Part shown: piece after piece, positions 3,362-59,996 of the stretch
How the letters are laid out: each line of letters opens with the position of its first letter
Numbering within the stretch: position 1 is the stretch's first letter
DNA from: Eledone cirrhosa
Taxonomy: Eukaryota
Assembly (NCBI GenBank): GCA_964016885.1
Contig: OZ024750.1
Coordinates: forward strand, 32,302,001 to 32,366,000
Direction of reading: 5' to 3'
DNA length: 64,000 nt
Program-made: the position numbers and the translations under genes
The notes under the pieces: model-generated
What the model was told of the DNA's origin: nothing
Seen by the model: the letters and a program-made list of their open reading frames with translations, nothing else
Databases searched by the model: none

Positions 3362-3486
3362 TATATATAAATATATATATATATATAAATATATATATAT
3401 TTATATATATATATAAATATATATATAAATATATATATATATAAATATATAATAAATAACAAAGAACGCCTATAGCATATGCATAT

Positions 3487-3544
3487 CTTTACTTGCTAAC
3501 ATTGTTTCATCCGCACTATAAGTGGGACTCATCAGAGCATAAAG
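3487..3544 (-). ncRNA. Type I hammerhead ribozyme (PLE)
   Basis: Reverse complement of the HHR at 7692-7749. Confidence 0.75.
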
Positions 3545-4178
3545 GTTAATTACATACCATACAAGCAATAACAAATCCAAGACATTGAAGAATGAAAAAT
3601 AATAGAAGATAAAGGATATTAAGGAAGTAAAAGTAAAAATAAGAATAAAAATAAAAATAAAAATAAAAATAAAAATAAAAATAAAAATAAAAATAAAAAT
3701 AAAAATAAAAATAAAAATAGAAATAAAAATAAAAATAAAAATAAAAATAAAATAATAAAATAAACAATGAAAAATAAGGGGTGCTATCAGTCACAGTTGG
3801 GCGGGGTGCTGTCAACATATAGTTACATACAAGCATACACATGGATAAGAGAACAGACAAGAGTAGATAAGATAGATAGGATTAGGTAAGAGTAGGTAAA
3901 AAATAGGTGAAAAACAGACTTATAATATATATAAGAAAATATAAAGAAATATATAACAAACTTACATATAAAATATAAAGTATAAAATATACAGATAATA
4001 GTGATACAGGGTAAGGAATGAAATAAAATAATATAAAATTAAAATTAAAATTATATAAAATAGAACATAATATAATATAATCATAAAATAAGATAAAATA
4101 AGGTAAACTAAAATAAAATAAAATAGACTAAAGTAAAATAATATAATATAAGATATAATTAAATGTAATTAAATAAAA

Positions 4179-4229
<51 letters not shown>

Positions 4230-5844
4230 AATTAAATAAATAAATAAAATTAAAATTAAAATTAAATTTAAATAAATGAATAAATAAATAAATAAGTAAA
4301 TAAATAAATAAATAAATAAATAAATGAAATTAAATAAGTAAATAAATAAAATAAAATTAATAAAATTAGATAAAATGAAATGAAATAAAATAAAATAAAA
4401 TAAAATGAAATAAAGTAAATTGAGATAAGATATATATTTTTTTTAGAATATATCTCTTGAATATATCAGGGGCCCACGAAGGCACTAAGTGTCACAGTCA
4501 TCTGTGTCACTTGACCATTTTTTAAAAATATATTTCTTGAAGATATCAGGGGCCCACGAAGGCTCTAAGTGTCACAGTCACCAGTATTACTTGACCATTG
4601 CAAGGCAATGGAGGCGTCCCAGGTTGGGCAGTCTCAAAAGTTCACTCGAAAGTCACGGGTGTGCATTCACACAGTTGAGCGGTGGGGTAATCACAAACCG
4701 GTTCACACCCGGGCAGGAGTCCAATGGTCAAACAGAGGTGCATCGAAGGAAGGTAGGAGAATTCACGTGCATTAGCAAGCGAGGTGCAGGCGGGTTAGCC
4801 AAAGCAAGCAGACACAGTTGGAGCGCATACAAAAGATATATAAAAAGACAAAAGATATATAAAAAATAGCTTCAAGAGCTATGAAGTCACCGCATTGGGA
4901 CATCACAAGATCGTACACATCAATATGTTCAGCACGTGTATGCACATATACACACCACATGCATATGCAGAGACGGTATACATATATATATATATATTTT
5001 TTTATATACAGACATATACAACCACCTACACCCAAACACATATAAATGTATACACAGACACACACGCACACACACACAGCGTAGGACACCCGGGTCAAAG
5101 CTAATATTAAACACCGAAATACCACATTAGGCAAGACCCACCACCACGGATAATACATTCAAAATAAATACATACGATGAGATGTAGTAAAATAAAGTTG
5201 AATTCCTACGGAGATAATCATGTCCGCACGTGCCATTGCCCGATTCAAGTGTACACAGACCGTTAGTAACTACGGAGGGCTATCGGGGCCAAAACGTTAC
5301 TTTCGGGATCATAACAACGACCGTCAATATATGGAAGGCCGATCGTGCTAGAAAGACTACAACCCCGGGCAAGAGCTCCCAGAAGTCAGCCTGTAGATCT
5401 TAAACCACAGAATATGAGGGCAACACGTACATGCGCCACGTATCTACTGCTTACGGCCGGATGGCACAGGTCCGCCCACAGTTACAGGCTAAATTTCTAT
5501 TAGTGCAGCCTATATCACAGTACACGCTCCACATAGATACATTACATCACAACTCATGCGCATACAGAGGTACAGATCCACAAGATATGCGTCAGGATAG
5601 ACCCACCAATGCACCAATGGTGGGTAGGCGAGCGTGGATGGGTTACATCCGCTGTGCCAAACAGGGGTGCTTATTAACATACACACCCACTCACCTGTAC
5701 ACCCCAGTATCCAGATCAATATCCTCCCGCAGACATACGTATACACTCACCGACTCATATACATAGAAGACCAACAATAGGAGACAGTTACACACAATCA
5801 GAGACAGTTACACAAGATAGCCCAACTGGAGAAATAAGGAAGTG

Positions 5845-6213
5845 CTAGCTAACAGGTTTAAAGTAGAAGAAAGAGCTTAATATTCGGTGGGGGCAAGAGG
5901 AAAATATTTCAGACTTTCTATTTAGTAGAGGGCATTTAGCAAATATAATAGAGTGGGATTCGGCAAGGCATAGGTTACATACTCTATTATGAGGAGTATA
6001 TGGATGGGATTTAGCAACCTGCCGCCAAGTAAGTGTGTAATGTGTTCGTGCATTTTTTAAATTATGGACGTACGCTGCCAAGGAGGTGGAGTTCCTCAGT
6101 TTATTATGTCTAAAAGTGCATTGGTGAGAGTTAAACCTGGTCTTAAAGGGGGTGGAGGTTGATCCTATATAGGTTTTAGTGGACGCCGTAGTTACCACAT
6201 CACACGCATAAAC
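5845..6213 (-). pseudogene. 5'-truncated C-terminal GIY-YIG endonuclease domain of a PLE ORF
   Basis: VYACDV...TYIGST...FKTRFNSH...STSLAAYVHNLK...W...PY...CNLCLAE...LLNRKSEIFSSCPHR*. GIY-YIG motif with conserved R/H/E/N and CxxC. The part of listed ORF 5845..6450 upstream of 6213 is an artefactual fusion. Confidence 0.85.
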
Positions 6214-7020
6214 TGAGGAACTCCGCCTCCTTGGCAGCGTACGTCCATAATTTAAAAAATTACGCTGTGTGTGTGTGCGTGTGTGTCTGTGTATACATTT
6301 ATATGTGTATGGGTGTAGGTGGTTGTATATGTCTGTATATAAAAAAAATATATATATATATATGTATACCGTCTCTGCATATGCATGTGGTGTGTATATG
6401 TGCATACACGTGCTGAACATATTGATGTGTACAATCTTGTGATGTCCCAATGCGGTGACTTCATGGCTCTTGAAGCTATTTTTTATATATCTTTTGTCTT
6501 TTTATATATCTTTTGTATGCGCTCCAACTGTGTCTGCTTGCTTTGGCTAACCCGCCTGCACCTCGCTTGCTAATGCACGTGAATTCTCCTACCTTCCTTC
6601 GATGCACCTCTGTTTGACCATTGGACTCCTGCCCGGGTGTGAACCGGTTTGTGATTACCCCACCGCTCAACTGTGTGAATGCACACCCGTGACTTTCGAG
6701 TGAACTTTTGAGACTGCCCAACCTGGGACGCCTCCATTGCCTTGCAATGGTCAAGTAATACTGGTGACTGTGACACTTAGAGCCTTCGTGGGCCCCTGAT
6801 ATCTTCAAGAAATATATTTTTAAAAAATGGTCAAGTGACACAGATAACTGTGACACTTAGTGCCTTCGTGGGCCCCTGATATATTCAAGAGATATATTCT
6901 AAAAAAATATATATCTTATCTCAATTTACTTTATTTCATTTTATTTTATTTTATTTTATTTCATTTCATTTTATCTAATTTTATTAATTTAATTTTATTT
7001 ATTTACTTATTTAATTTCAT

Positions 7021-7060
<40 letters not shown>

Positions 7061-7691
7061 ATTTAATTTTAATTTTAATTTTATTTATTTATTTAATTTT
7101 ATTTATTTATTTATTTATTTTATTTAATTACATTTAATTATATCTTATATTATATTATTTTACTTTAGTCTATTTTATTTTATTTTAGTTTACCTTATTT
7201 TATCTTATTTTATGATTATATTATATTATGTTCTATTTTATATAATTTTAATTTTATATTATTTTATTTCATTCCTTACCCTGTATCACTATTATCTGTA
7301 TATTTTATACTTTATATTTTATATGTAAGTTTGTTATATATTTCTTTATATTTTCTTATATATATTATAAGTCTGTTTTTCACCTATTTTTTACCTACTC
7401 TTACCTAATCCTATCTATCTTATCTACTCTTGTCTGTTCTCTTATCCATGTGTATGCTTGTATGTAACTATATGTTGACAGCACCCCGCCCAACTGTGAC
7501 TGGTAGCACCCCTTATTTTTCATTGTTTATTTTATTATTTTATTTTTATTTTTATTTTTATTTTTATTTTTATTTTTATTTTTATTTTTATTCTTATTTT
7601 TACTTTTACTTCCTTAATATCCTTTATCTTCTATTATTTTTCATTCTTCAATGTCTTGGATTTGTTATTGCTTGTATGGTATGTAATTAAC

Positions 7692-7749
7692 CTTTATGCT
7701 CTGATGAGTCCCACTTATAGTGCGGATGAAACAATGTTAGCAAGTAAAG
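7692..7749 (+). ncRNA. Type I hammerhead ribozyme (PLE)
   Basis: CTTTA-TGCT|CTGATGA|GTCC-CACT-tat-AGTG-c-GGAT|GAA-AC-aat-GT-T|AGCA-ag-TAAAG. Full core, helix I with bulge, minimal helix III, GUU site. Confidence 0.75.
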
Positions 7750-7892
7750 ATATGCATATGCTATAGGCGTTCTTTGTTATTTATTATATCACGGCTCTCT
7801 CCTCAGACATCGAGCTAACCTTATACTGCCTGCTGGATAAGTGGAGTGTTATACACCCCTGATCCTCTCCCTAGTATACTATATAAATATAT

Positions 7893-8042
<150 letters not shown>

Positions 8043-8187
8043 ATATATATTTATATAGTATACTAGGGAGAGGATCAGGGGTGTATAACACTCCACTTAT
8101 CCAGCAGGCAGTATAAGGTTAGCTCGATGTCTGAGGAGAGAGCCGTGATATAATAAATAACAAAGAACGCCTATAGCATATGCATAT

Positions 8188-8245
8188 CTTTACTTGCTAA
8201 CATTGTTTCATCCGCACTATAAGTGGGACTCATCAGAGCATAAAG
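8188..8245 (-). ncRNA. Type I hammerhead ribozyme (PLE)
   Basis: Third copy, identical to the other two. Confidence 0.75.
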
Positions 8246-8303
8246 GTTAATTACATACCATATTTATATATATATATATTTAAATATATATATATATATA
8301 AAT

Positions 8304-8440
<137 letters not shown>

Positions 8441-8529
8441 AATATACATATATATATATATATATAAATATACATATATATATATATACAATATTAAATA
8501 AATGGAAAACTATATTTATAAAACCATAT

Positions 8530-8600
8530 TTATTTCATTATATATATTTCGGGGATATCATATTAACAATATGCTATGCCTTCATCAGACAAAATACAAT
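8530..8600 (-). ncRNA. Degenerate HHR-like motif in a dispersed repeat (second copy 37240-37308, +)
   Basis: CTGA(T/A)GA, long helix II (ATGCCATAT/ATATGGTAT in the 37 kb copy), then GAAA. Cleavage-site register is imperfect. Confidence 0.4.
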
Positions 8601-9077
8601 ATAAACAGTTTTTAATATTGTAAATATACTCCAAATATTTGTCGAGTGCTTTTATATCAGTTATAAATATTTACTAGTTGTAACCCAACAATTTTAAATA
8701 TAACTTTACATATATATATATATATATATAAATATACATATATATATATATATATATTAGAAAGTGAGGGTTTTTTACAAAATGAAAACAAATACGAGGT
8801 GTTTTACACGAGTGAAAGTATAAGGAAAAAAGATGAAATCGAAAATTCAACTGGTGTCTTCTATTTCACAAGAGAAAAACCACAAACCCTCCATCTCAAT
8901 TCTACTTTTGAAAAGCACAAGAACTGCGAAACCGGTAAAGGAGCCAAATAAATATATATATATATTTTTTAAAAGACTCCAGTTGCATTTTCGATTTCAT
9001 CTTTTTTCCTTATATATATATAACGGCGATGAATTAGTTTTGCGATGTTTTTGATATGAAATCGTGTGTCGAAACAA

Positions 9078-9507
9078 ATATTGTTATACTTGGAGAGGGT
9101 CATATTTGTGTAATAATATTGCCAGAATTAATAACAGAACACACTCACTGTTTGGTTGCTTTTTGCTTCTGTGTCTCTTATATCGGTTAATTTAATTTAT
9201 TCGGTCCTCAATGTTGCCATTGACTGACCAACGGTCAAAAATACAATGCAACGGGAGGAAACATAATAGCACCACTGACGATGTTGCAGATCTGCAACGA
9301 AAGAACTTTGATAGACTATATATATGTGTTTGTGTCTATATTGTTTCTGTATTTTTGACCGTTGGTCAGTCAATGACAACATTGAGGACCGAATAAATTA
9401 AATTAACCGCTATAAAAGACACAGAAGCGAAAACCAACCAAACAGTGAGTGTGTTCTGTTATTAATTCTGGCAATATTATTACACACATATGACCCTCCC
9501 CAAGTAT

Positions 9508-9515
<8 letters not shown>
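9078..9515. repeat. Inverted repeat (arms 9078-9245 and 9348-9515) with HHR-like core in the spacer
   Basis: Arms are near reverse complements. Spacer has CTGACGA-t-GTTGCAG-at-CTGCAAC-GAAA (9275-9302). Right end abuts (TA)n. Confidence 0.75.
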
Positions 9516-11681: not shown

Positions 11682-11853
11682 GATATTAACAAATGGAAAC
11701 TATATTTATAAAACCATATTTATTTTATTATACATATTTCAAGGACACCACGTTAAATTAATATCGTATGTTTACTCCAAATACTTGTTGAGTGCTTTAT
11801 ATCAGTTATAGAAATATTTGCGTGTTGTATCCCAACAATTTAAATAGAACTTT

Positions 11854-11908
<55 letters not shown>

Positions 11909-13536: not shown

Positions 13537-13569
<33 letters not shown>

Positions 13570-13901
13570 AATGTAAGTATGTATGTATGTACACGTACAT
13601 ACATATATGTATATAGACGTACAGTAGTATGTATATATATACATACATGCACACACATATATATATGCACGTATCGGTTTACCGAACATTTATTATAATA
13701 CTCAGTTTGTTTATTTGTAAACAAGCAAACATCCCGGATTACGCCGTACAGTGTTTAGGCAACCACGTCACATTTTTTACGTGTACATACATACATACTT
13801 ACATTTAAGTAAGTGCCGTACTAAGAGTGAGAAATGAAATTTCGTTTCATTCTATTCCATTTATCGTTTTCGGTGCGCACAGCCGACTGAACTCACTCGA
13901 T

Positions 13902-13949
13902 ATGCAAATTAGGCTGCTCAGCCGTTAATATGCATAAGGAAAGTATATA
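13902..13949 (+). promoter_or_regulatory. Octamer + PSE-like + TATA block (putative snRNA-type promoter), family B
   Basis: ATGCAAATTAGGCTGCTCAGCCGTTAATATGCATAAGGAAAGTATATA; aligns with the family A block. Function is inferred. Confidence 0.5.
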
Positions 13950-13971
13950 CTTTCAGACGTCAACCATCTGG

Positions 13972-14030
13972 CAGGAATGTATACGATGCTGACGATAGTT
14001 AATAAGCTTGAAACTGGTACATCGTTCCTG
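13972..14030 (+). ncRNA. Type I hammerhead ribozyme (family B)
   Basis: CAGGAA-tgtat-ACGATG|CTGACGA|t-AGTT-aata-AGCT-t|GAA-AC-tg-GT-A|CATCGT-TCCTG; GUA site. Confidence 0.75.
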
Positions 14031-14304
14031 TGTCAGTGTTGAACAAAAAGGTGACGTGGTTGCCTAAACACTGTATGGCGTAATCCGGGCTGTTTGTTTG
14101 TTTACAAACAAACCTAGCATTATATTAAATGTTCGGTAAACCGATACGTGCATATATATATATATGTGTGCATGTATATATATATATATACATACTAGTG
14201 TACGTCTGTATACATATATATATGTATGTAGGTGTACATACATACATACTTACATTTAAGTAAGTGCCGTACTTAGAGTGAGAAATGAAATTTCGTTTCA
14301 TTCT

Positions 14305-14364
<60 letters not shown>

Positions 14365-27000: not shown

Positions 27001-27883
27001 TACATACACACACTTCGTTTTTGAATTTGTTTTGCAAGATTTCTTATCTGAAATCGTGTGTTGAAATACATATTGTTATACTATATGCGAGTGTTCTTAT
27101 TGGCAGCATGACCCTCCCAAAGTATATCAAAAGTATATATAGCCGACTGAATATGCTCTCTCTCTATTTTTCCATCATTTTCTCCGTTCCTTCTTCTTAT
27201 CATCTATTTTCTATCTAACTTCTGACGAAGCACCAGTGACGGAACATTAAGACTTCTATTTCAAACGTTAAATTATTATATGTCTTCCATGTACTGTGCC
27301 GTTTATTCTATTATTTCTGTTTATCTTTTACACACAAACACATACATGTGTGTGCGTGAACCTTTGTGTGGGTGTGTATGAGAGAAATATATTTGTATCA
27401 AGCTTAAGAATGTCTTTTGTGTTAGAGATATCACTCGTATATCTACGATACTGCATGACATTTAAAATTGAATTCTTCGACATTTTCCTAATATGTCAGA
27501 TTTCATGGCCCCCTCAAAATGTATCGTATGATCCTTCTGCTGCAAATCAATATATTGATTTCGGTTATTGGCACCATATAATAATTTTGGCAGAATGTAT
27601 GGTCAATTTATTCGAACTTGTTCTATTCCTAGTACTTATTTTATCGACTCACCACCATCCCTATTTCCTCGATAAAGGATAAGTTGTCCTTGACTTAATT
27701 TCAACTCAAAACGGAGACTGAAATAACTATCGCTATATTCCTTTGAAAAGTATATATATTTTCCGAGGTTTTTTTTTTATATGAAATCGTGTGTTAAAAC
27801 AGATATTATTATATTTAGGGAGGATCATGTTATAATATAGCCAGAAAAAAATTGAAGCAATATATATATATATATATATATAA

Positions 27884-28448
27884 ATAAAATTAGTCCCTCA
27901 TCAGCGATCCTCCATCCCTCACCGGTACCCCCATCGCTTCAAAGATCATATACTCCCGGTTGGTGCGAGCAACGGCTAAAGAAAGTCGTTGGGACACGTA
28001 AAGTAGGGTGAAACGAGCGAGACATGCAAACAAACAAAGATGGTAATGCAGCGAAAAGTGCGGAAGAAGGAGTCAAGTCCCTGAAATCGATGAACTTAAG
28101 TTCTGTGAAATTGTGGACGAGAGAGAATAAAGGCCATCCGACCTGGGTGAAATGCGAGCGAGAAAAGGACGTCACACAGGTCAAGCGGGAGGAAGTGAAG
28201 GAGAGAGTGGATGAGTGTAAGTGTGAGGAAGAGGCCAGCTGAGAGAGTGACTGACAGACGGAGTAAAAAGAAAGCGAGAGATACAGAGAAAGGGGAAGCA
28301 GTAAGAAAGAAACAGACGGGTCACAGCGGAGGAAAAAAATATATAAATATATGAAAAGATGGCGTGCTGCGTGGTTGCAAATGGGTTACATATGAATAAA
28401 ATTAGTCCCTCATCAGCGATCCTCCAGCCCCACCGGTACCCCATCGCT
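27884..28448 (-). mobile_element. 512-bp-period partial tandem carrying an HHR 5' half (pLTR/retrozyme-like relic)
   Basis: AATAAAATTAGTCCCTCATCAGCGATCCTCCA...CACCGGTACCCC..ATCGCT at 27884-27938 and 28395-28448. The minus strand has CTGATGA but no downstream GAAA. Flanked by TA microsatellite. Confidence 0.45.
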
Positions 28449-30049
28449 GTGTGTGTATGTATATATATATATACATATATATACATATATATACATATAC
28501 ATATATACATACATACACATATATATATATATACATATACATATATACATACATACACATATATATATATACATACATACATACACACACACGGAAGCGA
28601 AAACCAGAGCAAAGAGCGAGTGTGTTTTACTATTTTTTCTGGCAATATTAGGACAACATAACCCTCCCCAAATATAACAATATATATATTTCTACTATGT
28701 TTCCATATTGCTAATATTTTGAAAATGAAGGGTACCGAGGATTAAATGGATTATGTTTCAAATTTATTGATTTATTGAAATCTCACGAGTAAAATCAATG
28801 GCAGTGGAATGAGACATTAAAAGCTTGGAATGTGAGAGTCTAAGACTAAATTCAATAAACGGCTGAGAAGCCCATCTAAATGTTCAGTTCACTCGTCAAT
28901 CTCATGATTTAGCGATTAAATAGACGGATATCATTTTGAGCTCTGTGACGTGAAGAAGCTGGTGTTCTATTAGAAAATGTGAGTGGAAGGGAATAAACGT
29001 ATTTCCTCTTACGAAACAGAAGACAATCAATGCAGGGGAAATGGATATATTTGTTTTTATATGTTCTATTCGTTGTAGCCTCATCACACTCTCACTACAA
29101 AAGGAAATTCATGCAGTGAAAGAAAGAATTCAAAGCAACCCCTTAACCGTTCTTAATTTTTGGAAGGAAATGAGAACTGAAGTACTACGCCTCTTTGTTG
29201 TTGAAAGATAAAATAACTCAAAGATGCTAAAAAAAAAAAGCTGAAGTATCATATCTTCTAGTTAACTATGATACCATCTAAAATGTTTTGATCACCAGAG
29301 TGTTATTTGCAGCCTGATTACCCAAACTGGAAAAATGGAGATGATGAAGAATAAATAAAAATTCTCTCCATCCTGTCCGCCGGAACCACGAAGCGAACTG
29401 ACTCTTAAGTCTCATTCATGGTGGTAGGATGTGGAATACATTTGCATACATTTAAAATACCATTGTTGAATATTGTATCTAGTTTCAGCTCTTTATTTTC
29501 CCTTAGAAGCTCCTTTAGAAGCTCCTGTATTATGTGCTATTAAAAAAAGATTCAAAATAAATAAAATTGTATTGTCTACATGGTAACGGTCCTCAGTTAA
29601 TATTCGGGTGTAGTATCTTTCAATTTACATAACAGCTTTTCAGTCGGAGTCATTTCCTAAAAAAAAGGTTGTTGAAAACTTTGCTTGATAATGTGAACAG
29701 TGGTGGCGAAATTTCAATATTTGATTCTAAACGAACAACTGACATGTTAGAAGTAGCTTGTTGGTCTTTGAAAAAAATAAGCATTACGAAAATGCTGGAA
29801 TTAATCAGGGTTACTCACGTCTTCAAAACAGTCTGATGATGACCAAATATGCTTAGAAGAAGACGAATGAATAATGAAGACATTGAACGGAGACCGAACT
29901 CGGGTCATATATGAAAGATTTTCCACAGGTAAGATTCAAGGCCTGTTATCATTAGATGAATATGTGTTGGAATTGAAAGTTTTAAGAAAGAAAAAAATAC
30001 AGAGAGGGGTGATGGCTCAACAAAATTAACATTATTAGAAACCAAGTGT

Positions 30050-36364: not shown

Positions 36365-36414
36365 CAGGAAGGTATGCGTTGCTGACGATAGCTAATAAGC
36401 TTGAAACTAGTACT
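36365..36414 (+). ncRNA. HHR (family B), 3' strand of helix I lost
   Basis: CTGACGA...GAA-ACTAGT-A followed by a deletion. Confidence 0.5.
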
Positions 36415-37490
36415 ACGGCTTAATACGGCATGTTTGTTTACAAACACACCGAGCATTATAATAAATGTTCGGTGAATCCATACGTAAATATATATATGTG
36501 TGCATGTATATATATATATACATACTATTGTACGTCTGTATACATATATGTATGTACGTATACATATTTATATTGTTGTTATAGTTGTTATTCTAATTCT
36601 TATTAAATATTTAGCAAAAACCAAACTTCTGGGTTCAATTCCACCCCAGATATATATCTTAGCTTCTGAATTATTTTTGAAGTTTTTTATCGATCACAAG
36701 TTCAATTTTTCAAGATTTTGCTACTAATGGTCATTTGATCCTCCACCACCCTCACGCACATGTGTACGCATGTATATATATATATATGAGTGCAGTTACC
36801 TCCGATTGGACCCGGGACTCTCTCTCTCTCTCACACACACGCTTAACTAGTGGTGCGGATCTTGTAAAATCGTACCGAGGAAACAATGTTCTTTGGTGTT
36901 ATAATTGCTAATACTATCTGTCGGTCGTAACTACAGGCAGAAGGAGCATCTATAACAGCACAGCCACGCGCTTTCACACTCAACCACGCACCCTCACACT
37001 CAGACATATATATATTTGTATATATATATATATATATATGCAAAAGTTTTATTTAAAATTGTTGGGTTACAACGAGTAAATATTTTATAACTGACATTTC
37101 TTCCTTTTCTCCGTCTTTCTTTCTAACTGTGCTTAACACTAAATATTTATAAACATTTCACTACCAAACCAACCTCTTAAATGGAAGTTGTTCAATATTT
37201 ATGGTACGTCAAATTTATTTATAAAACTGCTTATATATTGTATTTTATCTGAAGAAGGCATGCCATATTTTTAATATGGTATCCCTGAAATATGTATAAT
37301 GAAATAGATATGGTTTTATAAATATAGTTTCCATTTGTTTAATATCGTATATATAAATATATATATATATCCCAAATTAAATTAAGGGTGTGATGTCCGA
37401 GATACACTTTTACACACTTTTACAAATTATTCCCTGTGATTGTTTTATATGTTTATTTTAGATATATATATATGTCAATCAATTTCTAGT

Positions 37491-39704: not shown

Positions 39705-40700
39705 ACCGGTACTAATTCTGCAACTAATATTTTACTCGGTAACCTTGGTTGAGCGATCCTTCGATCAAAAGTACTGATTCTGCAACCGCTACTGTTGGAG
39801 TTAAGCTCATGTTAACCTTACTGCAGCGGTCTGCTGATCAAAGGTACTAATTCTGCAACTAATATGTTAGTTGGTAAACTTGGTTGAGCGATCCTTCGAT
39901 CAAAAGTACTGATTCTGCAACCGCTACTGTTGGAGTTAAGCTCATGTTAACCTTACTGCAGCGGTCTGCTGATCAAAGGTACTAAATCTGCAATCGCTAC
40001 TTTTGATGTTAACACTGGTTGAGCGGTCCTCTCATCAAAGGTACTTATTCTACAATCACTACTGTTGGTTTTAAACCCAGGTTAATCTTAGTGGACCGAT
40101 GTTCTGATCAAAGGTACTAATTCTGCAACCACTGCTGTTGGTTTTAGACCCTGGTTAACCTTATTGGAGCGATGCTCTGAACAAAAGTACTAAGTCTGCA
40201 ACCCCTAATGTTGGTGTTAAACCCAGCTTCACCCTAATGTGAGCGGATCTCTGAGCAAAGACACTAAATCTATAATCGCTACAGTTGGTGTTGAGCTCCG
40301 GTTCACCCTAGCTGAGCGGATCTCTGATCAAGGACACGGAACCTGGAATCGCTACTGATGGTATTACGCCCAGGTTGACAATAGTGGGGTGGTCAGCTAA
40401 TGAAATGTACTAATTCTACAGTCAGTGCAACGTCTCTTGTAACCCTAGTGGAGCTGACTTCTCATCAAATGTACTGATTCTACAATAACTGTTGTTGTTA
40501 TTAACTGTGTTTGAGCTGCCTTCCAATCCTAGTTACCAATTCTGCAATTGGTGCTGTTACAGTTCAGCCCAGGTTAACTCTGGCTGAGCAGAATTCTAAT
40601 CACAGGTTCTAATTTCGCAAACCCTGATCGAGCAGATCTCTCATCACAGGGATTAGATTTGCAACCGTTGCTACCGTTAAGCCAGAGTTAGCCCTGATGG
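39705..40700. repeat. Degenerate minisatellite of 62- and 73-bp monomers
   Basis: GTACT.ATTCTGCAA anchors at 39709, 39771, 39844, 39906, 39979, 40041, 40114, 40187 and onward. Confidence 0.8.
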
Positions 40701-50596: not shown

Positions 50597-52228
50597 AATA
50601 ATAATGGTAATAATAATTATGAAGACCAAACTTCATATATATATATATATATATATGAATTGGGAGGGTTTCATATAGCTTCATCACATTCAGCGATGGT
50701 TATTGTTTAATGATTGGCTGGTATTTGCAATATGGCGTGGGATTGTGAAGTATTTGTCCGTTTGAAGCTATGGTTACGTTATGAAGAAGGTGGAGCGGGG
50801 AACAGTACAGTTATAGAATCACTTTATATTTTTCTAAATTTAGTTATTTCTGCATTTATTTCTTAAAATTGATTTCTTAATAATTGGAATATATATTTGT
50901 GGCTCTTATGCGAGCATATAGAAATTGATTTATTGAATAACACTACGAATTCTAGCAGTGAAAACTAATTTTGAGTTTGGTAATTTCTAAAGTTTGTTAT
51001 TAATTATTTCATACTAATTGGAGGTTTTATATATGAAATAGTGATTGTATATATAATTGACTTTATTGAAATATTGCCAGACTCTTATTATTGCTAATTG
51101 ATAATAAGAAGTCATTCAGTTATATTCCTTCTTTCCCGATCGCTATGTTAGGTGAATTATTTTTTTAATTTTTAGTAATCTATTTCTACCTAATTTTGGT
51201 TTCGTGGCAATTAAGAAATTACGGATATCCTCAATTTCGTGTGCTTGGATATGTTTGGAAAAGGTCACGAATGTTTACGATTATTTATTTGACACTTGCC
51301 CTTTAATATGCAAATTTATAAACGATATTTGCATGACCCTTTGATCCAGAAAGTTCTAGAGAAAAGCGTGAATATTATAAAGTCCTTGACGTTAATGATT
51401 TTGTAGCAAACGTGACAATCTGTATACTAAATGATTATATTTAAAGTTGCTGGGGATGGGGGGTCTAAGAAATCTCTATGAGTAATATATATGTTGTGAA
51501 GTAACGTGGCCTAGTGGTAAGGCTGTTGGACGTACAATCTTAATGCCATGGATTCCATTCCTGGAGCACCTTGTGTGTTGGGGTCTTAACCTAAACACTT
51601 CATTTCTCGTTGCTTCAGTATAATCAGGTGACCCGCCACGGACACCAGAATAAGCATCGGCCTGATGAGCCTCCGGTATATATATATGTACTCTCATAGA
51701 CAGACACACACACACACATATACATATATACATGTGTGTGTGAGAAAGGGAGACGCATTCAATCGGGGGTAACCACAGTAAGTAAGGTACTCAATACATT
51801 AGTATAGTATATATAACAAATGTAATATAGATATAGAAATGGCTTCTACACGACTAAAACTGTTTCATTCGAAGAAAATCATCCAGATATTATACACCGC
51901 CCCCGCCCCAACTCTCAAGAGCGTGAACCTAATATACCTTTATTTGTCTGCCTCTCTGTTTTGTTCCCGTCCAAAGTTGCACTATATATATAATTATATA
52001 TATATACAATTAAGTTAAAAATGTACATCCACATATGTATACTGAAATACTAGTATGCATATGAATACACACACGTATACATATGTAGATGTACCGAGTT
52101 TTTCACTGGTCACTTTACTGTGAGTGTCCAGCTATTCTGTATGTAAACACACAGACAAACCGGTTTTTAGAGTCATACTGGTTTTTGAGGAAACACCTTT
52201 CCTCTATTCTCCAGAAAGCCAGACAAGG

Positions 52229-52273
52229 AATATTGAACTAGTTTCGTTGTTGTTACAACTCATCAGCAATATT
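52229..52273 (-). ncRNA. Type I HHR (family A)
   Basis: Reverse complement of 54163-54207. Confidence 0.85.
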
Positions 52274-52694
52274 TACCTATCTTCCGGCCTTTCTAGAGAA
52301 TCGTAAAAGCACATATCGTTATATGCTTTTTCTATGAAAATTAGTAGTGGGCAGACTAATTTGCATAGAGCGTGAGTACGTACCGGTTCAACGGAGACGA
52401 TAAAAACAAATAACGAAACGAAATTAAATTTCGTTTCGTTTGTAACTCACTTTTGTATGACTGACGCTTAAACAATTAAGTTAAAAATGTACATCCACAT
52501 ATGTATACTGAAATACTAGTATGCATATGAATACACACACGTATACATATGTAGATGTACCGAGTTTTTCACTGGTCACTTTACTGTGAGTGTCCAGCTA
52601 TTCTGTATGTAAACACACAGGCAAACCGGTTTTTAGAGTCATACTGGTTTTTGAGGAAACACCTTTCCTCTATTCTCCAGAAAGCCAGACAAGG

Positions 52695-52739
52695 AATATT
52701 GAACTAGTTTCGTTGTTGTTACAACTCATCAGCAATATT
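52695..52739 (-). ncRNA. Type I HHR (family A)
   Basis: Identical copy, +466 bp. Confidence 0.85.
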
Positions 52740-53160
52740 TACCTATCTTCCGGCCTTTCTAGAGAATCGTAAAAGCACATATCGTTATATGCTTTTTCTA
52801 TGAAAATTAGTAGTGGGCAGACTAATTTGCATAGAGCGTGAGTACGTACCGGTTCAACGGAGACGATAAAAACAAATAACGAAACGAAATTAAATTTCGT
52901 TTCGTTTGTAACTCACTTTTGTATGACTGACGCTTAAGCAATTAAGTTAAAAATGTACATCCACATATGTATACTGAAATACTAGTATGCATATGAATAC
53001 ACACACGTATACATATGTAGATGTACCGAGTTTTTCACTGGTCACTTTACTGTGAGTGTCCAGCTATTCTGTATGTAAACACACAGACAAACCGGTTTTT
53101 AGAGTCATACTGGTTTTTGAGGAAACACCTTTCCTCTATTCTCCAGAAAGCCAGACAAGG

Positions 53161-53205
53161 AATATTGAACTAGTTTCGTTGTTGTTACAACTCATCAGCA
53201 ATATT
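53161..53205 (-). ncRNA. Type I HHR (family A)
   Basis: Identical copy. Confidence 0.85.
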
Positions 53206-53626
53206 TACCTATCTTCCGGCCTTTCTAGAGAATCGTAAAAGCACATATCGTTATATGCTTTTTCTATGAAAATTAGTAGTGGGCAGACTAATTTGCATAG
53301 AGCGTGAGTACGTACCGGTTCAACGGAGACGATAAAAACAAATAACGAAACGAAATTAAATTTCGTTTCGTTTGTAACTCACTTTTGTATGACTGACGCT
53401 TAAACAATTAAGTTAAAAATGTACATCCACATATGTATACTGAAATACTAGTATGCATATGAATACACACACGTATACATATGTAGATGTACCGAGTTTT
53501 TCACTGGTCACTTTACTGTGAGTGTCCAGCTATTCTGTATGTAAACACACAGACAAACCGGTTTTTAGAGTCATACTGGTTTTTGAGGAAACACCTTTCC
53601 TCTATACTCCAGAAAGCCAGACAAGG

Positions 53627-53671
53627 AATATTGAACTAGTTTCGTTGTTGTTACAACTCATCAGCAATATT
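53627..53671 (-). ncRNA. Type I HHR (family A)
   Basis: Identical copy. Confidence 0.85.
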
Positions 53672-54069
53672 TACCTATCTTCCGGCCTTTCTAGAGAATC
53701 GTAAAAGCACATATCGTTATATGCTTTTTCTATGAACGGAGACGATAAAAACATTCTGGAGAATAGAGGAAAGGTGTTTCCTCAAAAACCAGTATGACTC
53801 TAAAAACCGGTTTGTCTGTGTGTTTACATACAGAATAGCTGGACACTCACAGTAAAGTGACCAGTGAAAAACTCGGTACATCTACATATGTATACGTGTG
53901 TGTATTCATATGCATACTAGTATTTCAGTATACATATGTGGATGTACATTTTTAACTTAATTGTTTAAGCGTCAGTCATACAAAAGTGAGTTACAAACGA
54001 AACGAAATTTAATTTCGTTTCGTTATTTGTTTTTATCGTCTCCGTTGAACCGGTACGTACTCACGCTCT

Positions 54070-54117
54070 ATGCAAATTAGTCTGCCCACTACTAATTTTC
54101 ATAGAAAAAGCATATAA
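54070..54117 (+). promoter_or_regulatory. Octamer + PSE-like + TATA-like block, family A (one per complete unit)
   Basis: ATGCAAATTAGTCTGCCCACTACTAATTTTCATAGAAAAAGCATATAA. Function is inferred. Confidence 0.5.
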
Positions 54118-54162
54118 CGATATGTGCTTTTACGATTCTCTAGAAAGGCCGGAAGATAGGTA

Positions 54163-54207
54163 AATATTGCTGATGAGTTGTAACAACAACGAAACTAGTT
54201 CAATATT
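54163..54207 (+). ncRNA. Type I HHR (family A)
   Basis: AATATTG|CTGATGA|GTTGT-aaca-ACAAC|GAA-AC-ta-GT-T|CAATATT. Perfect core, 7-bp helix I, 5-bp helix II, palindromic ACTAGT helix III, GUU site. Confidence 0.88.
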
Positions 54208-54628
54208 CCTTGTCTGGCTTTCTGGAGAATAGAGGAAAGGTGTTTCCTCAAAAACCAGTATGACTCTAAAAACCGGTTTGTCTGTGTGTTTACATACAGA
54301 ATAGCTGGACACTCACAGTAAAGTGACCAGTGAAAAACTCGGTACATCTACATATGTATACGTGTGTGTATTCATATGCATACTAGTATTTCAGTATACA
54401 TATGTGGATGTACATTTTTAACTTAATTGTTTAAGCGTCAGTCATACAAAAGTGAGTTACAAACGAAACGAAATTTAATTTCGTTTCGTTATTTGTTTTT
54501 ATCGTCTCCGTTGAACCGGTACGTACTCACGCTCTATGCAAATTAGTCTGCCCACTACTAATTTTCATAGAAAAAGCATATAACGATATGTGCTTTTACG
54601 ATTCTCTAGAAAGGCCGGAAGATAGGTA

Positions 54629-54673
54629 AATATTGCTGATGAGTTGTAACAACAACGAAACTAGTTCAATATT
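54629..54673 (+). ncRNA. Type I HHR (family A)
   Basis: Identical copy. Confidence 0.88.
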
Positions 54674-54961
54674 CCTTGTCTGGCTTTCTGGAGAATAGAG
54701 GAAAGGTGTTTCCTCAAAAACCAGTATGACTCTAAAAACCGGTTTGTCTGTGTGTTTACATACAGAATAGCTGGACACTCACAGTAAAGTGACCAGTGAA
54801 AAACTCGGTACATCTACATATGTATACGTGTGTGTATTCATATGCATACTAGTATTTCAGTATACATATGTGGATGTACATTTTTAACTTAATTGTTTAA
54901 GCGTCAGTCATACAAAAGTGAGTTACAAACGAAACGAAATTTAATTTCGTTTCGTTATTTG

Positions 54962-54992
<31 letters not shown>

Positions 54993-55115
54993 GAATATAG
55001 ACATAGAATATTCGAAAATATTCTGTATGTTTATAATAAACATTTTGAAGACCTAATCGCTATAGAATAGAATACGTCACGTATTACAATTAGATTCTCG
55101 ATAAAAGCAAGGGAA

Positions 55116-55158
55116 GTAATCTACGCGTTTCATTCTTGTTAGAAATCATCAGGACTAC
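55116..55158 (-). ncRNA. Type I HHR (family C)
   Basis: Reverse complement of 55516-55558. Confidence 0.8.
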
Positions 55159-55515
55159 ATATCCAGTGCTTTTATCGAGAATGACACAGCTAGAGACTTA
55201 TAGAATACTTAGCTGTGTACAGGAACTGGTTTGAAAGAGCGGTTGCCGGTCCGGCAGAAATTAGAAATTGGAATAAATGCTCTGAAATAGCGATATATAT
55301 GTGAATATAGACATAGAATATTCGAAAATATTCTGTATGTTTATAATAAACATTTTGAAGACCTAATCGCTATAGAATAGAATACGTCACGTATTACAAT
55401 TAGATTCTCGATAAAAGCAAGGGAAGTAATCTCGCTCTTTCAAACCAGTTCCTGTACACAGCTAAGTATTCTATAAGTCTCTAGCTGTGTCATTCTCGAT
55501 AAAAGCACTGGATAT

Positions 55516-55558
55516 GTAGTCCTGATGATTTCTAACAAGAATGAAACGCGTAGATTAC
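55516..55558 (+). ncRNA. Type I HHR (family C)
   Basis: GTAGTC|CTGATGA|t-TTCT-aaca-AGAA-t|GAA-AC-gc-GT-A|GATTAC, closed by a 16-bp stem ATTCTCGATAAAAGCA/TGCTTTTATCGAGAAT. Confidence 0.8.
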
Positions 55559-55826
55559 TTCCCTTGCTTTTATCGAGAATCTAATTGTAATACGTGACGT
55601 ATTCTATTCTATAGCGATTAGGTCTTCAAAATGTTTATTATAAACATACAGAATATTTTCGAATATTCTATGTCTATATTCACATATATATCGCTATTTC
55701 AGAGCATTTATTCCAATTTCTAATTTCTGCCGGACCGGCAACCGCTCTTTCAAACCAGTTCCTGTACACAGCTAAGTATTCTATAAGTCTCTAGCTGTGT
55801 CATTCTCGATAAAAAGCACTGGATAT

Positions 55827-55869
55827 GTAGTCCTGATGATTTCTAACAAGAATGAAACGCGTAGATTAC
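55827..55869 (+). ncRNA. Type I HHR (family C)
   Basis: Identical copy, +311 bp. Confidence 0.8.
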
Positions 55870-56023
55870 TTCCCTTGCTTTTATCGAGAATCTAATTGTA
55901 ATACGTGACGTATTCTATTCTATAGCGATTAGGTCTTCAAAATGTTTATTATAAACATACAGAATATTTTCGAATATTCTATGTCTATATTCACATATAT
56001 ATCGCTATTTCAGAGCATTTATC

Positions 56024-56079
<56 letters not shown>

Positions 56080-56906
56080 CAGATTAGAGCAAACATCACG
56101 GACGCTCTATCTCAAAATTATTTTTGAAAAGCATTAGAAATGCGCAACCGGTAAAACTTAAAAGCAAAACTGAATACTAAACAATACTATTACTAATTTT
56201 CACTTATTCCTAATTAAACTATTTTTCACTGTGAACAATTTGTCAGCATTTTCTTTTCCGTTTACCAATATATCATAACTTGTGTGTTACACCTCTATTC
56301 TTTTAAATATATATATATATATATATATTTTATAAACCTGACGGCCGTATGTATGTAACAAACCTTTCGCCAAACGGCTGGACCAAACAGCACCAACATT
56401 TGCACCTTAGATGTAACTTTTTCTAAGTAAGAAAGTGAAGCTATTTTTGTCTACTGAAGTTTGTTAAAAGATTAAAGACATTATTTAAATATTCACTTCT
56501 TTAAAATTTCAAATGTCAACAATTCCGGTTATACAACATTCCTCTCTCTCTTTCTTAGCCTGTCTTTTTAGATAGATACAGCTATAACGTTGCACCCTTA
56601 CAATATGTCTCTGTATGTCTGCTTGTCTGCATTAGGCCGATAAGATCAGTAACCTCCGCAGTAGTGAAAGAGTGAAGAATAACATGGTCGGCTGTACAAA
56701 AAGGGTTTTATTTACAATATTAACAATTGTTTCATTGATCAGATGAGTCTAAAGGCAGCTGATTACTCGAAATTGCGTCCTCGACCTTAAATACAGTGTA
56801 TGTCTCTGATCAAATCATCGGAATACTCTAACTTGATTACCTAAAACGATAACTTATTATCCCATATATATATATATATACTCACACACACACATACTCC
56901 CCCCCC

Positions 56907-56949
<43 letters not shown>

Positions 56950-57036
56950 CAAAGAGGGTGTGGTAAGATACCAGGTTGTCCATAATGCACCAGAGTACTC
57001 GATACATGGAGTAGTAGATTGGGTAATATAAAAAAA

Positions 57037-57130
57037 TTCAAGACCCGACGGCTGAGGTCCGATCGTTTCGACAGCTAGATTCGGATCTAGCTGTCGAAAC
57101 GGCCGGAGCTTAGCCGTCGGGGTCCTGAAT
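57037..57130. repeat. GC-rich fold-back made of two inverted HHR 3' halves
   Basis: CGTTTCGACAGCTAGAT-tcgg-ATCTAGCTGTCGAAACG. The right arm reads GAA-ACGGC-loop-GCCGT-C. Confidence 0.7.
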
Positions 57131-58132
57131 CTTTTCATATATATATATATATATATTTACCTACTCCTACCGAGGTTAGACATGTTTTTCTTTGCTCTCC
57201 CGAATTCACCGTCAACAAAAGCCTCTGACTTTTCTCTCTCCCTCCCCATTACTTACATACATACATGTGCTTCTCATGTTCCCCTCTTTTTCGATATGCT
57301 CTCAGCGTTTTCTTTTCCTTTTTTTTCCCTTCTGTCTACCCCCCCCCCCCCCCCCATAACTGGAGTTAGACATATTCTCTTTAATGCATTGAAATATACC
57401 TGATCTCCAGCAGACAGCTGAAGAAGGAATTGTCCCCCGCTTGTTCTTTGCTTTTATTTTAAAAAATATATATATATATATACCCTTTTCCTCTTAAGAA
57501 CAGTCTATGCGGTAATATTTTCTGGTTTCCACTGTTTTTCTATTCTCCCTTTAACCAAAGCGTTAATACGTTCAAGCACTTTCTGTTTGTTATTCAAACC
57601 GCCAAGAGCATATATAGTTATTCCCTAGGTTCATTAGGAAAGTAGATGACATTTAGATTACACTGGTGAAAATCACTTACGCCTGCTGAGCGTTGGCTAT
57701 ACAATATATATTGAAATGTTCACTCATATCGTCTTACTTTAGGTATTACAAATGCGTTTCTTCTAATATAAAATATTGCCACTATCCTGTACTATACAAT
57801 ATTGATAAGAATGCTTTCGAATATTTTGTTTTATTTTAGCTGTTTAGCTTTCGTTTTGTTTATTTATCAATTGATTTTCTATTATGCTGGAATACAATAT
57901 TATTCGATTCCTCCTACGCGGATTTGGAAATTATGTTTCAAAATAAAATATGGTTTTCCTAAAAGATATTTTCCTTTTTCTAATTTATATTTAGTGAATC
58001 ATACTCTAGTCGCCTTTAGGGCAATGTTCGTGATTTTTAATATCGAACCATTGTAACTGATTCCGCTTAACTTTCATACATTTCTAGAATGTTCTTTCTG
58101 GTTTTATTTTGCTGATAGAAAAAGGAACAACA

Positions 58133-58470
<338 letters not shown>

Positions 58471-58822
58471 ATAGTATATTTCTTATTTGATACTTCGTGT
58501 CCGGCTGAAATGTATGTTGTTGCCTTTAAGCGATCTCTTATATGCATACATACATACATGGTGGTGGCTGCCAACTCGTTTTCGAGTACGGCCACTACTT
58601 TATATCCATGTAGGAGAACCCCTACCGATGCGCTGAACGAGTGTGACTTTTTAGTCCAGCCAGCGACTTGAAAACTCTGGTACAAACACTACACTTGTGA
58701 CAATTATTGACACATAGTGCCAGGCCCATGGTACCATGTGATGACAAGTGCAGAGAGATCTCCAGATATAAAGCAATGCCTGTGCCGTGAAGCTTTTATA
58801 GTGAGCAAAGGCACTGCACAAA

Positions 58823-59996
58823 GTCAGTCCCCTCTTGGTTCTGACATCTAGTAGGATGTAGAACACCATCTTCATAGAGCGAAGCTGGGCATTCTTCTGT
58901 TTTGGTTGAGATAGTCAGTCCCCTCTTGGTTCTGACATCTAGTAGGATGTAGAACACCATCTTCATAGAGCGAAGCTGGGCATTCTTCTGTTTTGGTTGA
59001 GATAGTCAGTCCCCTCTTGGTTCTGACATCTAGTAGGATGTAGAACACCATCTTCATAGAACGAAGTTGGGCATTCTTCTGTTTTGGTTGAGATAGTCAG
59101 TCCCCTCTTGGTTCTGACATCTAGTAGGATGTAGAACACCATCTTCATAGAACGAAGCTGGGCATTCTTCTGTTTTGGTTGAGATAGTCAGTCCCCCTCT
59201 TGGTTCTGACATCTAGTAGGATGTAGAACACGATCTTCATAGAACGAAGCTGGGCATTCTTCTGTTTTGGTTGAGATAGTCACTCCCCCTCTTGGTTCTG
59301 ACATCTAGTAGGATGTAGAACACCATCTTCATAGAACGAAGCTGGGCATTCTTCTGTTTTGGTTGAGATAGTCACTCCCCCTCTTGGTTCTGACATCTAG
59401 TAGGATGTAGAACACCATCTTCATAGAACGAAGTTGGGCATTCTTCTGTTTTGGTTGAGATAGTCAGTCCCCTCTTGGTTCTGACATCTAGTAGGATGTA
59501 GAACACCATCTTCATAGAACGAAGCTGGGCATTCTTCTGTTTTGGTTGAGATAGTCAGTCCCCCTCTTGGTTCTGACATCTAGTAGGATGTAGAATACCA
59601 TCTTCATAGAACGAAGCTGGGCATTCTTCTGTTTTGGTTGAGATAGTCAGTCCCCCTCTTGGTTCTGACATCTAGTAGGATGTAGAATACCATGTTCATA
59701 GAACGAAGCTGGGTATTCTTCTGCTTTGGTTGAGATAGTCAGTCCCCCTCTTGGTTCTGACATCTAGTAGGATGTAGAACACCATGTTCATAGAACGAAG
59801 CTGGGCATTCTTCTGTTTTGGTGGAGATAGTCAGTCTCCCTCTTGGTTCTGATATCTAGTAGGATGAAGAACACCGTCTCCATAGAACGAAGCTGGGCAT
59901 TCTTCTGTTTTGGTTGAGATAGTCAGTCCCCTCTTTGTTCTGACATCTAGTAGGATGTAGAACACCGTCATCATAGAACGAAGCTGGGCATTCTTC
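58823..59996. repeat. 91/92-bp minisatellite, 13 cores
   Basis: GTCA(G/C)TCCCC starts at 58823, 58914, 59005, 59096, 59187, 59279, 59371, 59463, 59554, 59646, 59738, 59830, 59922. Confidence 0.95.

What the first reader, a model, noticed from the sequence alone, without database searches (positions are those of the whole stretch)
52006..57130. Common head-to-head geometry: both ends of a (TA)n break appear to prime cDNA
Seen: in the PLE (3.4-7.9 kb), the 9.1-9.5 kb repeat, family B (13.6 kb), family A, family C and the 57.0 kb fold-back, the left arm is ribozyme-sense on minus and the right arm on plus. The 5' ends join at the centre and the 3' ends face TA-rich flanks. A and C are stacked with only a short (TA)n (about 25 bp) between them. 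Established: PLE insertions often show inverted 5' segments. Inference: the consistent polarity points to twin target-primed RT by one shared enzyme, and this creates long dsRNA/cruciform-prone loci.
Basis: partly seen in the sequence, partly recalled or inferred. Interest (0 to 1): 0.7.

Follow-up and report, generated by a model that had tools for sequence, protein, structure and literature searches.

The report
Head-to-head Penelope-type retrozyme insertions
Several ribozyme-bearing mobile repeats in this animal genome sit as mirror-image pairs inside TA repeats, an arrangement already published for Penelope-like retrotransposons, and the positions of their ends suggest that each half was likely copied from RNA at its own side of one DNA break.

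Summary
Mostly confirmed, and largely known. Families A (466 nt) and C (310 nt) are hammerhead tandem repeats (non-LTR retrozymes), stacked across 23 nt of (TA)n. Five of the six listed loci have an assignable polarity; all five are head-to-head, and all 10 of their arm 3' ends abut (TA)n. The 57.0-kb fold-back has no ribozyme core. Head-to-head is published as the commonest Penelope-like (PLE) arrangement, with a one-sided 'tail'; the PLE here looks Hydra-type, a clade known to target (TA)n. New detail favours twin priming over self-priming: homologous families A and B end their two arms at the same two RNA sites; the 9-kb arms are not nested; three of four centres lack microhomology; one arm in each tandem locus stops 1-19 nt from the ribozyme cut (post hoc p about 0.01). 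DNA reads of another sample hold an A copy with 14 private A>G changes on the ribozyme strand, ADAR-like, hinting at dsRNA templates. 'One shared enzyme' is not shown. No genome-wide count was possible. The scan reported similar PLE-end palindromes in other genomes.

The parts
52003..53736 (-). Family A left arm, 3.7 tandem 466-nt units, four type I hammerheads; 3' end at unit position 230 (counted from the ribozyme cut), abutting (TA)n
53737..53753 (-). 17-nt piece ending the left arm after a jump over a 50-nt hairpin region (2-nt microhomology); stops at unit position 294, 8 nt past the right arm's start site
53754..54968 (+). Family A right arm, 2.6 units, two hammerheads; 5' end at unit position 20, 3' end at 302; blunt join to the left arm
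54969..54991 (.). (TA)n between A and C; the two families meet tail-to-tail across it
54992..55432 (-). Family C left arm, 1.4 tandem 310-nt units, one hammerhead; 5' end within 1 nt of the ribozyme cut, 3' end at unit position 130
55433..56026 (+). Family C right arm, 1.9 units, two hammerheads; 5' end at unit position 191, 3' end at 165 (35-nt tail), abutting (TA)n
56948..57175 (.). 57.0-kb fold-back: 4-nt loop, arms about 85% alike, no hammerhead core, polarity not assignable; a related copy lies at 26.86-26.97 kb
3447..6207 (-). 5'-truncated PLE, left arm: C-terminal GIY-YIG endonuclease of Hydra type (5848-6207), long 3' region, hammerhead at 3535
6208..7886 (+). PLE right arm: 53-nt mirror of 6052-6104, a 969-nt gap, then a mirror of 3447-5083 plus 97 further bases; hammerhead at 7701; 6-nt microhomology at the centre
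8051..8262 (-). 212-nt exact mirror of the PLE right end, tail-to-tail across a TA tract whose interruptions are themselves mirrored (counter-example, likely a DNA-level fold-back)
9023..9511 (.). 9-kb head-to-head repeat: degenerate hammerhead core in the spacer (9275 +); left arm carries a tail of about 60 nt shared with copies at 27.0 and 27.8 kb
13569..14308 (.). Family B head-to-head locus (451-nt unit, homologous to A): left arm 13569-13777 on minus, right arm 13778-14308 on plus with a hammerhead at 13989

Best explanation
A, B and C are non-coding hammerhead tandem repeats (non-LTR retrozymes) that were likely inserted by a Penelope-like enzyme, which likely cut a (TA)n tract on both strands and primed reverse transcription from both ends, so that the two cDNAs were joined at their far ends into a head-to-head pair. 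Shown by the sequence: the hammerhead motifs, the polarity at five loci, the TA flanks, the two end sites and the blunt centres. Inferred: RNA template, PLE enzyme, two priming events. Each end likely starts at one of two preferred internal RNA sites 35-72 nt apart, which gives the one-sided tail. In the tandem loci the template may be one linear multimer whose 5' end is a ribozyme cut: one arm would run towards that cut, the other towards the first arm's start site, as in L1 twin priming; two separate RNAs fit almost as well. A and C likely entered the same TA tract in two events. The tail-to-tail pair at 7.7-8.3 kb likely arose by a different, DNA-level fold-back in the TA tract.
For: (1) 5 of 5 assignable loci head-to-head; 10 of 10 arm 3' ends at TA. 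(2) A and B align over the whole unit; their left arms end 2 alignment columns apart and their right arms 6 apart. The site-1 arm is the longer one in A and the site-2 arm in B, so both sites behave as starts, and the shorter arm also ends at a start site. (3) 9-kb arms are not nested: only the left has the tail, which two dispersed copies share, and only the right has the ribozyme spacer. (4) Centre microhomology is 0 in A, 0-1 in B and C. (5) Three variants in A's left arm and one in the mirrored part of C's right arm are not copied in the partner. (6) One arm stops 19 (A), 17 (B), 1 (C) nt from the ribozyme cut, p=0.009; with the abutting term joint p=0.003. (7) Both opposite-strand joints listed in reads of two other samples have head-to-head shape for family C; the 4 clean TA loose-end rows among 12 contig rows shown lie on the 3' side at the same sites. 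(8) PAc cuts and extends both strands, starts at two internal sites that define the tail, and is predicted to be a dimer (PMC11167929). (9) The PLE endonuclease has Hydra marks; Hydra elements insert into (TA)n.
Against: No empty site, no target duplication (hidden in TA) and no genome-wide count. The abutting term alone is not significant (p=0.13; distances 8, 29, 61 nt), the tests are post hoc, A and B are related, and the A distance was entered as 6 instead of 8. RT stalling at the long stem beside the cut could also explain ends at +17 to +20. The PLE centre is a 53-nt fold-back with 6-nt microhomology and nearly equal original arm lengths, which fits snap-back; its 97-nt extension could be host DNA. 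A, B and C arms are formally nested because the units repeat. The unshared variants may be later mutations or assembly errors. Both read joints end at the last base of the laid stretch, so their exact junctions are unknown; the TA loose ends may include this locus itself; 321 loose-end rows were not shown; the window's own centres were not listed as joints. One same-family tail-to-tail pair and several un-inverted copies exist. No sequence link ties A or C to the PLE of the window.
Confidence: 0.6

Rival explanations
1. Self-priming or snap-back: one strand (an antisense RNA, as proposed in PMC3846280, or the first cDNA) folds back at its end and primes a copy of itself, giving a hairpin that is then joined to the second DNA end.
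For: Published model for exactly this polarity. The PLE centre has a 6-nt microhomology and a 53-nt fold-back with a loop of about 100 nt. Arms of A and C are nearly identical and formally nested.
Against: No microhomology or palindrome at the A, B and C centres. Shorter arms end at the same conserved sites as longer arms of the sister family. The 9-kb arms are not nested.
Confidence: 0.22
2. DNA-level fold-back after an ordinary single insertion: a hairpin or template switch duplicates part of the insert in inverted form.
For: Such an event is visible at 7675-8262, where the TA interruptions are mirrored.
Against: That event is tail-to-tail and centred on TA. The head-to-head arms stop at element-defined RNA sites and host flanks are not duplicated. 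None of the 19 SINE-like copies I listed has an abutting mirrored arm; five neighbouring pairs lie within 300 nt, two of them in opposite orientation with gaps of 73 and 103 nt.
Confidence: 0.07
3. Two independent insertions of the same family into one TA tract, in opposite orientation.
For: TA tracts are re-used: A and C share one, and families A and C are abundant (contigs with depth above 2000 for A and above 700 for C).
Against: TA should remain at the centre, yet the A, B, C and PLE centres have none. Arms differ by only 3 of about 2950 nt in A and 2 of about 1035 in C, while the families are variable in reads.
Confidence: 0.07
4. Assembly or amplification artefact (fold-back chimeras).
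For: Arms of A and C are almost identical; the window's own centres were not recovered as joints in the contigs.
Against: Older pairs (B 89%, 9-kb and 57-kb about 85-95% alike) have the same shape; boundaries follow elements; head-to-head joints of C occur in reads of two other samples. Short-read contigs drop rare paths, so the blank proves nothing.
Confidence: 0.04

Closest known systems
Insertion architecture of endonuclease-bearing Penelope-like elements (PMC3846280, PMC8557442; passages read)
   Same: An inverted 5'-truncated copy joined at the 5' end, head-to-head stated as the most frequent arrangement, a one-sided tail, AT-rich or (TA)n targets, partial tandems.
   Different: Here it is seen on non-coding multi-unit repeats; tails are 35-72 nt (97 nt unverified) rather than 30-40; centres of A, B and C lack the palindromes described in the rotifer paper.
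Metazoan non-LTR retrozymes (PMC7229834, passages; 10.64898/2026.07.22.740005, parts 1-3 of 5)
   Same: Tandem 150-450-nt, low-GC, non-coding units with a type I hammerhead; proposed to be moved by PLEs.
   Different: The passages read do not describe inverted arms, tails or (TA)n targeting ('inverted' and 'opposite' occur 0 times in PMC7229834). The hammerheads are of the minimal PLE kind with a very short stem III. Ends near the ribozyme cut hint at a linear template, whereas the published model uses circles.
Hydra clade of PLEs (PMC8557442; passages read)
   Same: C-terminal GIY-YIG without the internal Cys pair, CxxC and CxH around the conserved E and N, hammerhead present, (TA)n target.
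   Different: The RT and linker are missing from this copy, and its non-coding 3' region is about 2.4 kb while Hydra elements are described as under 3 kb in all.
L1 twin priming (10.1101/2024.08.27.596794 and PMC11702581; passages and one section read)
   Same: Both DNA ends prime cDNA; 5' ends join at the centre; small deletions or duplications at the inversion point; rare two-RNA insertions and ADAR-edited retrocopies are reported.
   Different: L1 uses a poly(A) primer and a chance internal primer, and its arms do not mirror each other. Here both ends use fixed internal sites, and a tandem template turns the inversion into a long mirror repeat.
In vitro mechanism of the Poseidon PLE PAc (PMC11167929; parts 1-2 of 4 read)
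   Same: Cuts and extends both strands at AT-rich DNA; two internal RT start sites define the tail; predicted dimer.
   Different: The parts read do not derive inverted insertions from it; it found uncleaved RNA to be the main substrate and no reads ending at the ribozyme cut, which weighs against my cut-end reading.

Membership tests
Non-LTR retrozyme (A, B, C) | Tandem units of about 150-450 nt, low GC, no coding frame | tested here: met
   Units of 466, 451 and 310 nt; no ORF of 150 aa or more in 52-57 kb
Non-LTR retrozyme (A, B, C) | Type I hammerhead in each unit | tested here: met
   Core, stems I and II and cleavage triplet found in every full unit; Rfam HH9 below its gathering score
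Non-LTR retrozyme (A, B, C) | Self-cleavage and expression as linear and circular RNA | not testable with these tools
   No RNA run was listed
Non-LTR retrozyme (A, B, C) | Dispersed, multi-copy, mobile | tested here: met
   1632 and 1412 contigs laid on one A and one C unit, many variants, one copy private to one sample; two B loci in the window
PLE-type insertion | Inverted 5'-truncated copy joined head-to-head | tested here: met
   5 of 5 assignable loci
PLE-type insertion | One-sided tail extension | tested here: met
   72 (A), 50 (B), 35 (C), about 60 nt (9 kb); 97 nt in the PLE unverified
PLE-type insertion | Target-site duplication or empty allele | not testable with these tools
   TA on both sides hides it; no genome held
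Hydra-clade PLE (3.4-7.9 kb) | C-terminal GIY-YIG endonuclease without the internal Cys pair, with CxxC and CxH around E and N | tested here: met
   Translation read against the description; Pfam GIY-YIG E=0.0064, below cut-off; Atlas neighbours named GIY-YIG at 0.94-0.96
Hydra-clade PLE (3.4-7.9 kb) | Hydra RT motifs, linker motif, phylogenetic placement | not testable with these tools
   The copy is truncated inside the endonuclease; a search for longer relatives found none among 121 candidates
Twin priming on one RNA (L1-like) | One arm ends next to the other arm's priming site | tested here: inconclusive
   8, 29 and 61 nt; p=0.13
Hammerhead element (57.0-kb fold-back) | CUGANGA core with stems | tested here: not met
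   None on either strand

The most novel reading that the evidence does not exclude
Retrozymes are inserted by twin priming on one linear multimer whose 5' end was made by its own hammerhead, not from a closed circle, with two fixed RT start sites, one per DNA end. The resulting mirror loci are transcribed into long duplexes that ADAR hyper-edits and that are themselves re-inserted, so head-to-head loci act as donors and editing diversifies the family. This would explain the inverted-plus-tail architecture of PLEs in general and give the ribozyme a role in insertion.
Probability: 0.25. Interest if true: 0.68.

Novelty: new member of a known kind. Interest (0 to 1): 0.42.

Why it matters
How PLEs make their tandem and inverted insertions is called undefined in PMC8557442, and the mobilisation of animal retrozymes by PLEs is proposed rather than shown. 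Very young, abundant retrozyme insertions with PLE hallmarks support that link, and their short repeated units act as a ruler: the positions of four ends per locus can separate twin priming from self-priming, and linear from circular templates, in any long-read genome. The geometry itself is not new.

Tried and rejected
No whole genome is held, so the genome-wide polarity count and the empty-allele comparison were not possible. No RNA holder listed. A scan of metagenome contigs with a 20-nt motif shared by A and B gave 4 loci, all 4 matching the motif alone. The strongest start and end peaks in the RAD reads fall on AATT sites and are library cuts, not element ends; I dropped them. The search for longer relatives of the endonuclease found none. 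The five A/G differences between the PLE arms first looked like editing, but two sit in CpG context and one follows a G, so I do not count them. The 57.0-kb hairpin as a hammerhead was rejected. miRNA matches of Rfam are hits to simple repeats and hairpins far below cut-off. ARAGORN found no tRNA, so the 'SINE-like' control family is named by its look only. PMC9977147 (passages) held nothing on inversions of PLEs.
Full report
What is there. The window is AT-rich animal-like DNA with 202 TA runs. At 52003-54968 lies family A, a 466-nt tandem unit, 3.7 units on minus and 2.6 on plus; at 54992-56026 lies family C, a 310-nt unit, 1.4 units on minus and 1.9 on plus. Every full unit has a type I hammerhead with core, stems I and II and a very short stem III. 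Rfam gave no match at gathering level; A scored 37.7 bits against HH9 (cut-off 52, E=5.8e-7) and C 19.2 bits. Both loci are very young: 3 differences in about 2950 nt of A, 2 in about 1035 nt of C. Between them are 23 untemplated TA bases. These are non-LTR retrozymes by structure (PMC7229834, passages; 10.64898/2026.07.22.740005, parts 1-3 of 5); cleavage and circles are untested.

The six loci. Polarity can be set for five. PLE, A and C have hammerheads in both arms; the PLE's endonuclease frame has the same sense as its hammerhead. B has one in the right arm, the 9-kb repeat a degenerate core in the spacer. All five are head-to-head, and all ten 3' ends abut TA (background 2.7%). The 57.0-kb fold-back has no core and its right arm continues through the TA run; it should be dropped from the list. 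Against the claim of uniformity: a 212-nt exact mirror of the PLE's right end lies tail-to-tail at 8051-8262, across a TA tract whose interruptions are mirrored (6, 19, 35 against 6, 21, 37), which points to a DNA-level fold-back; A and C meet tail-to-tail; and un-inverted copies exist at 35.7-36.6, 8.5, 11.7 and 37.0 kb. Five of five gives p=0.03, five of six p=0.11.

What is known. PMC8557442 (passages) states that PLE insertions often carry an inverted 5'-truncated copy at the 5' end and a 30-40-bp tail at one end, and that the cycle behind this is undefined. PMC3846280 (passages) calls head-to-head the most frequently observed arrangement and proposes self-priming on an antisense template. 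PMC11167929 (parts 1-2 of 4) shows that a purified PLE protein cuts and extends both strands of AT-rich DNA, starts at two internal RNA sites that define the tail, and is predicted to be a dimer. I found no paper that reports it for retrozymes or names twin priming for PLEs: one search gave 0 papers, none of the 13 listed held both 'retrozyme' and 'head-to-head', and the 2 of 11 listed papers holding 'penelope' and 'twin priming' mention Penelope once and were not read. The library lacks most subscription papers and I read no supplements, so this is weak.

Tests of mechanism. First, A and B align along the whole unit (67% mean column identity). Counting from the ribozyme cut, A's arms end at 230 and 302, B's at 239 and 289; in the alignment these are 2 and 6 columns apart. 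The longer arm uses the first site in A and the second in B, so both act as start sites, and the shorter arm ends at one in each case. A self-copied arm has no reason to stop there. Second, at 9 kb only the left arm has a tail of about 60 nt, shared with copies at 27.0 and 27.8 kb, and only the right arm has the ribozyme spacer: neither arm can be a copy of the other unless one was trimmed. Third, the centres of A, B and C have 0-1 nt of microhomology; the PLE centre has 6 nt and a 53-nt fold-back, which fits snap-back as well as annealing of two cDNA ends, and its 97-nt extension may be host DNA. Fourth, one arm stops 19, 17 and 1 nt from the ribozyme cut in A, B and C, and the other stops 8, 29 and 61 nt from its partner's start site. 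Against uniform ends: cut term p=0.009, abutting term p=0.13, joint p=0.003. The test is post hoc, A and B are related, I entered 6 for A's 8, and stalling at the adjacent stem is an alternative. PMC11167929 found uncleaved RNA to be the main substrate, which weighs against a cut-end template. The shape resembles L1 twin priming, where small deletions or duplications mark the inversion point.

Reads. One unit of A and one of C (54503-55301) were laid with 4 of the 23 listed runs: two contig sets of one sample, possibly the window's source, and two RAD read sets of other samples. Both families are abundant and variable. Five joints were listed, two of them between opposite strands, both in C, in both RAD sets (4 and 2 reads; 97 and 109 reads from one start). 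Because their second side begins at the last base of the stretch, both arms must run towards lower coordinates, which for C is head-to-head; the exact junctions are unknown. Of 12 contig loose-end rows shown, 4 are clean TA runs, all on the 3' side and within 7 nt of the window's own ends; they may include this locus, and 321 rows were hidden. The main read-end peaks are at AATT sites and are library cuts. The TA junction between A and C was skipped by the tool and so not verified.

An edited copy. In run X21, 14 A>G changes on A's ribozyme strand between 54663 and 54788 are seen in 68-179 reads each and in 0 reads of X22; among the 40 rows shown (100 hidden) the only other changes that frequent in X21 and at 0-1 reads in X22 are one G>A and one C>T. 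Seven of the sites are listed with at least 12 other differences per read, which fits one heavily changed copy; phasing is my inference. Thirteen of 14 changed A follow A or T against 8 of 22 unchanged (p=0.0008), and 10 of 14 are unpaired in the predicted monomer fold. The neighbour bias of ADAR is recalled knowledge. The simplest reading is a genomic copy made from an RNA edited within a long duplex, as reported for L1-made retrocopies (PMC11702581, section 7). It is one copy from one library, and all RAD reads start at one site, so an amplification artefact is not excluded.

What is not supported. One shared enzyme: the PLE's 3' end has no similarity to A or C above chance, and only a truncated endonuclease is present. 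Cruciforms: the shortest loops are 139 and 119 nt.

Verdict. A real and mostly well-described pattern, already published for PLEs, here shown on young retrozyme families. Twin target-primed reverse transcription is the best explanation (0.6), self-priming the main rival (0.22). The interest lies in the end positions, which make the PLE mechanism testable in a long-read genome. Earlier notes of this scan describe similar palindromic or tandem PLE-type insertions in other genomes; I did not check them.

Noticed in passing
reads of run X21 on window 54663-54788: A family A copy with 14 private A>G changes on the ribozyme strand and ADAR-like neighbours, absent from run X22: a likely hyper-edited RNA written back into DNA.
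   Followed up: partly
window 7675-8262: Tail-to-tail 212-nt exact mirror of the PLE end across a TA tract with mirrored interruptions; it ends in a further interrupted TA tract (8263-8490). Likely a DNA fold-back primed in (TA)n.
   Followed up: partly
window 36400-36430: The second unit of the un-inverted family B tandem has a deletion of about 70 nt that begins within a few bases of the ribozyme cut, like a template jump at a cleaved RNA end.
   Followed up: no
window 8491-8706, 11682-11855, 37041-37346: Another dispersed family with a long-stem-II hammerhead motif (8588 minus, 37249 plus), TA on both sides and no inverted arm.
   Followed up: no
window 27760-27860 and 28594-28680: Two older copies of the 9-kb family face head-to-head about 780 nt apart, long tail on the left and short end on the right as at 9 kb; between them lies a 560-nt element with a 55-nt direct repeat (27883-28447).
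   Followed up: partly
window 8823-9010: A small inverted pair (41-nt arms) of a further family with copies at 38.6 and 56.1 kb; right end at TA, polarity unknown.
   Followed up: no
window 5083-6051 versus 6260: The PLE right arm lacks 969 nt next to the centre, either an RT jump or a later deletion that shortened a 2.7-kb mirror repeat.
   Followed up: partly
window 58822-59996 and 39708-40626: Tandem arrays with periods of about 92 and 135 nt; no hammerhead core found in them.
   Followed up: no
window 2750-62295: About 19 copies of a 180-nt SINE-like repeat; used as a control, none with an abutting mirrored arm.
   Followed up: partly
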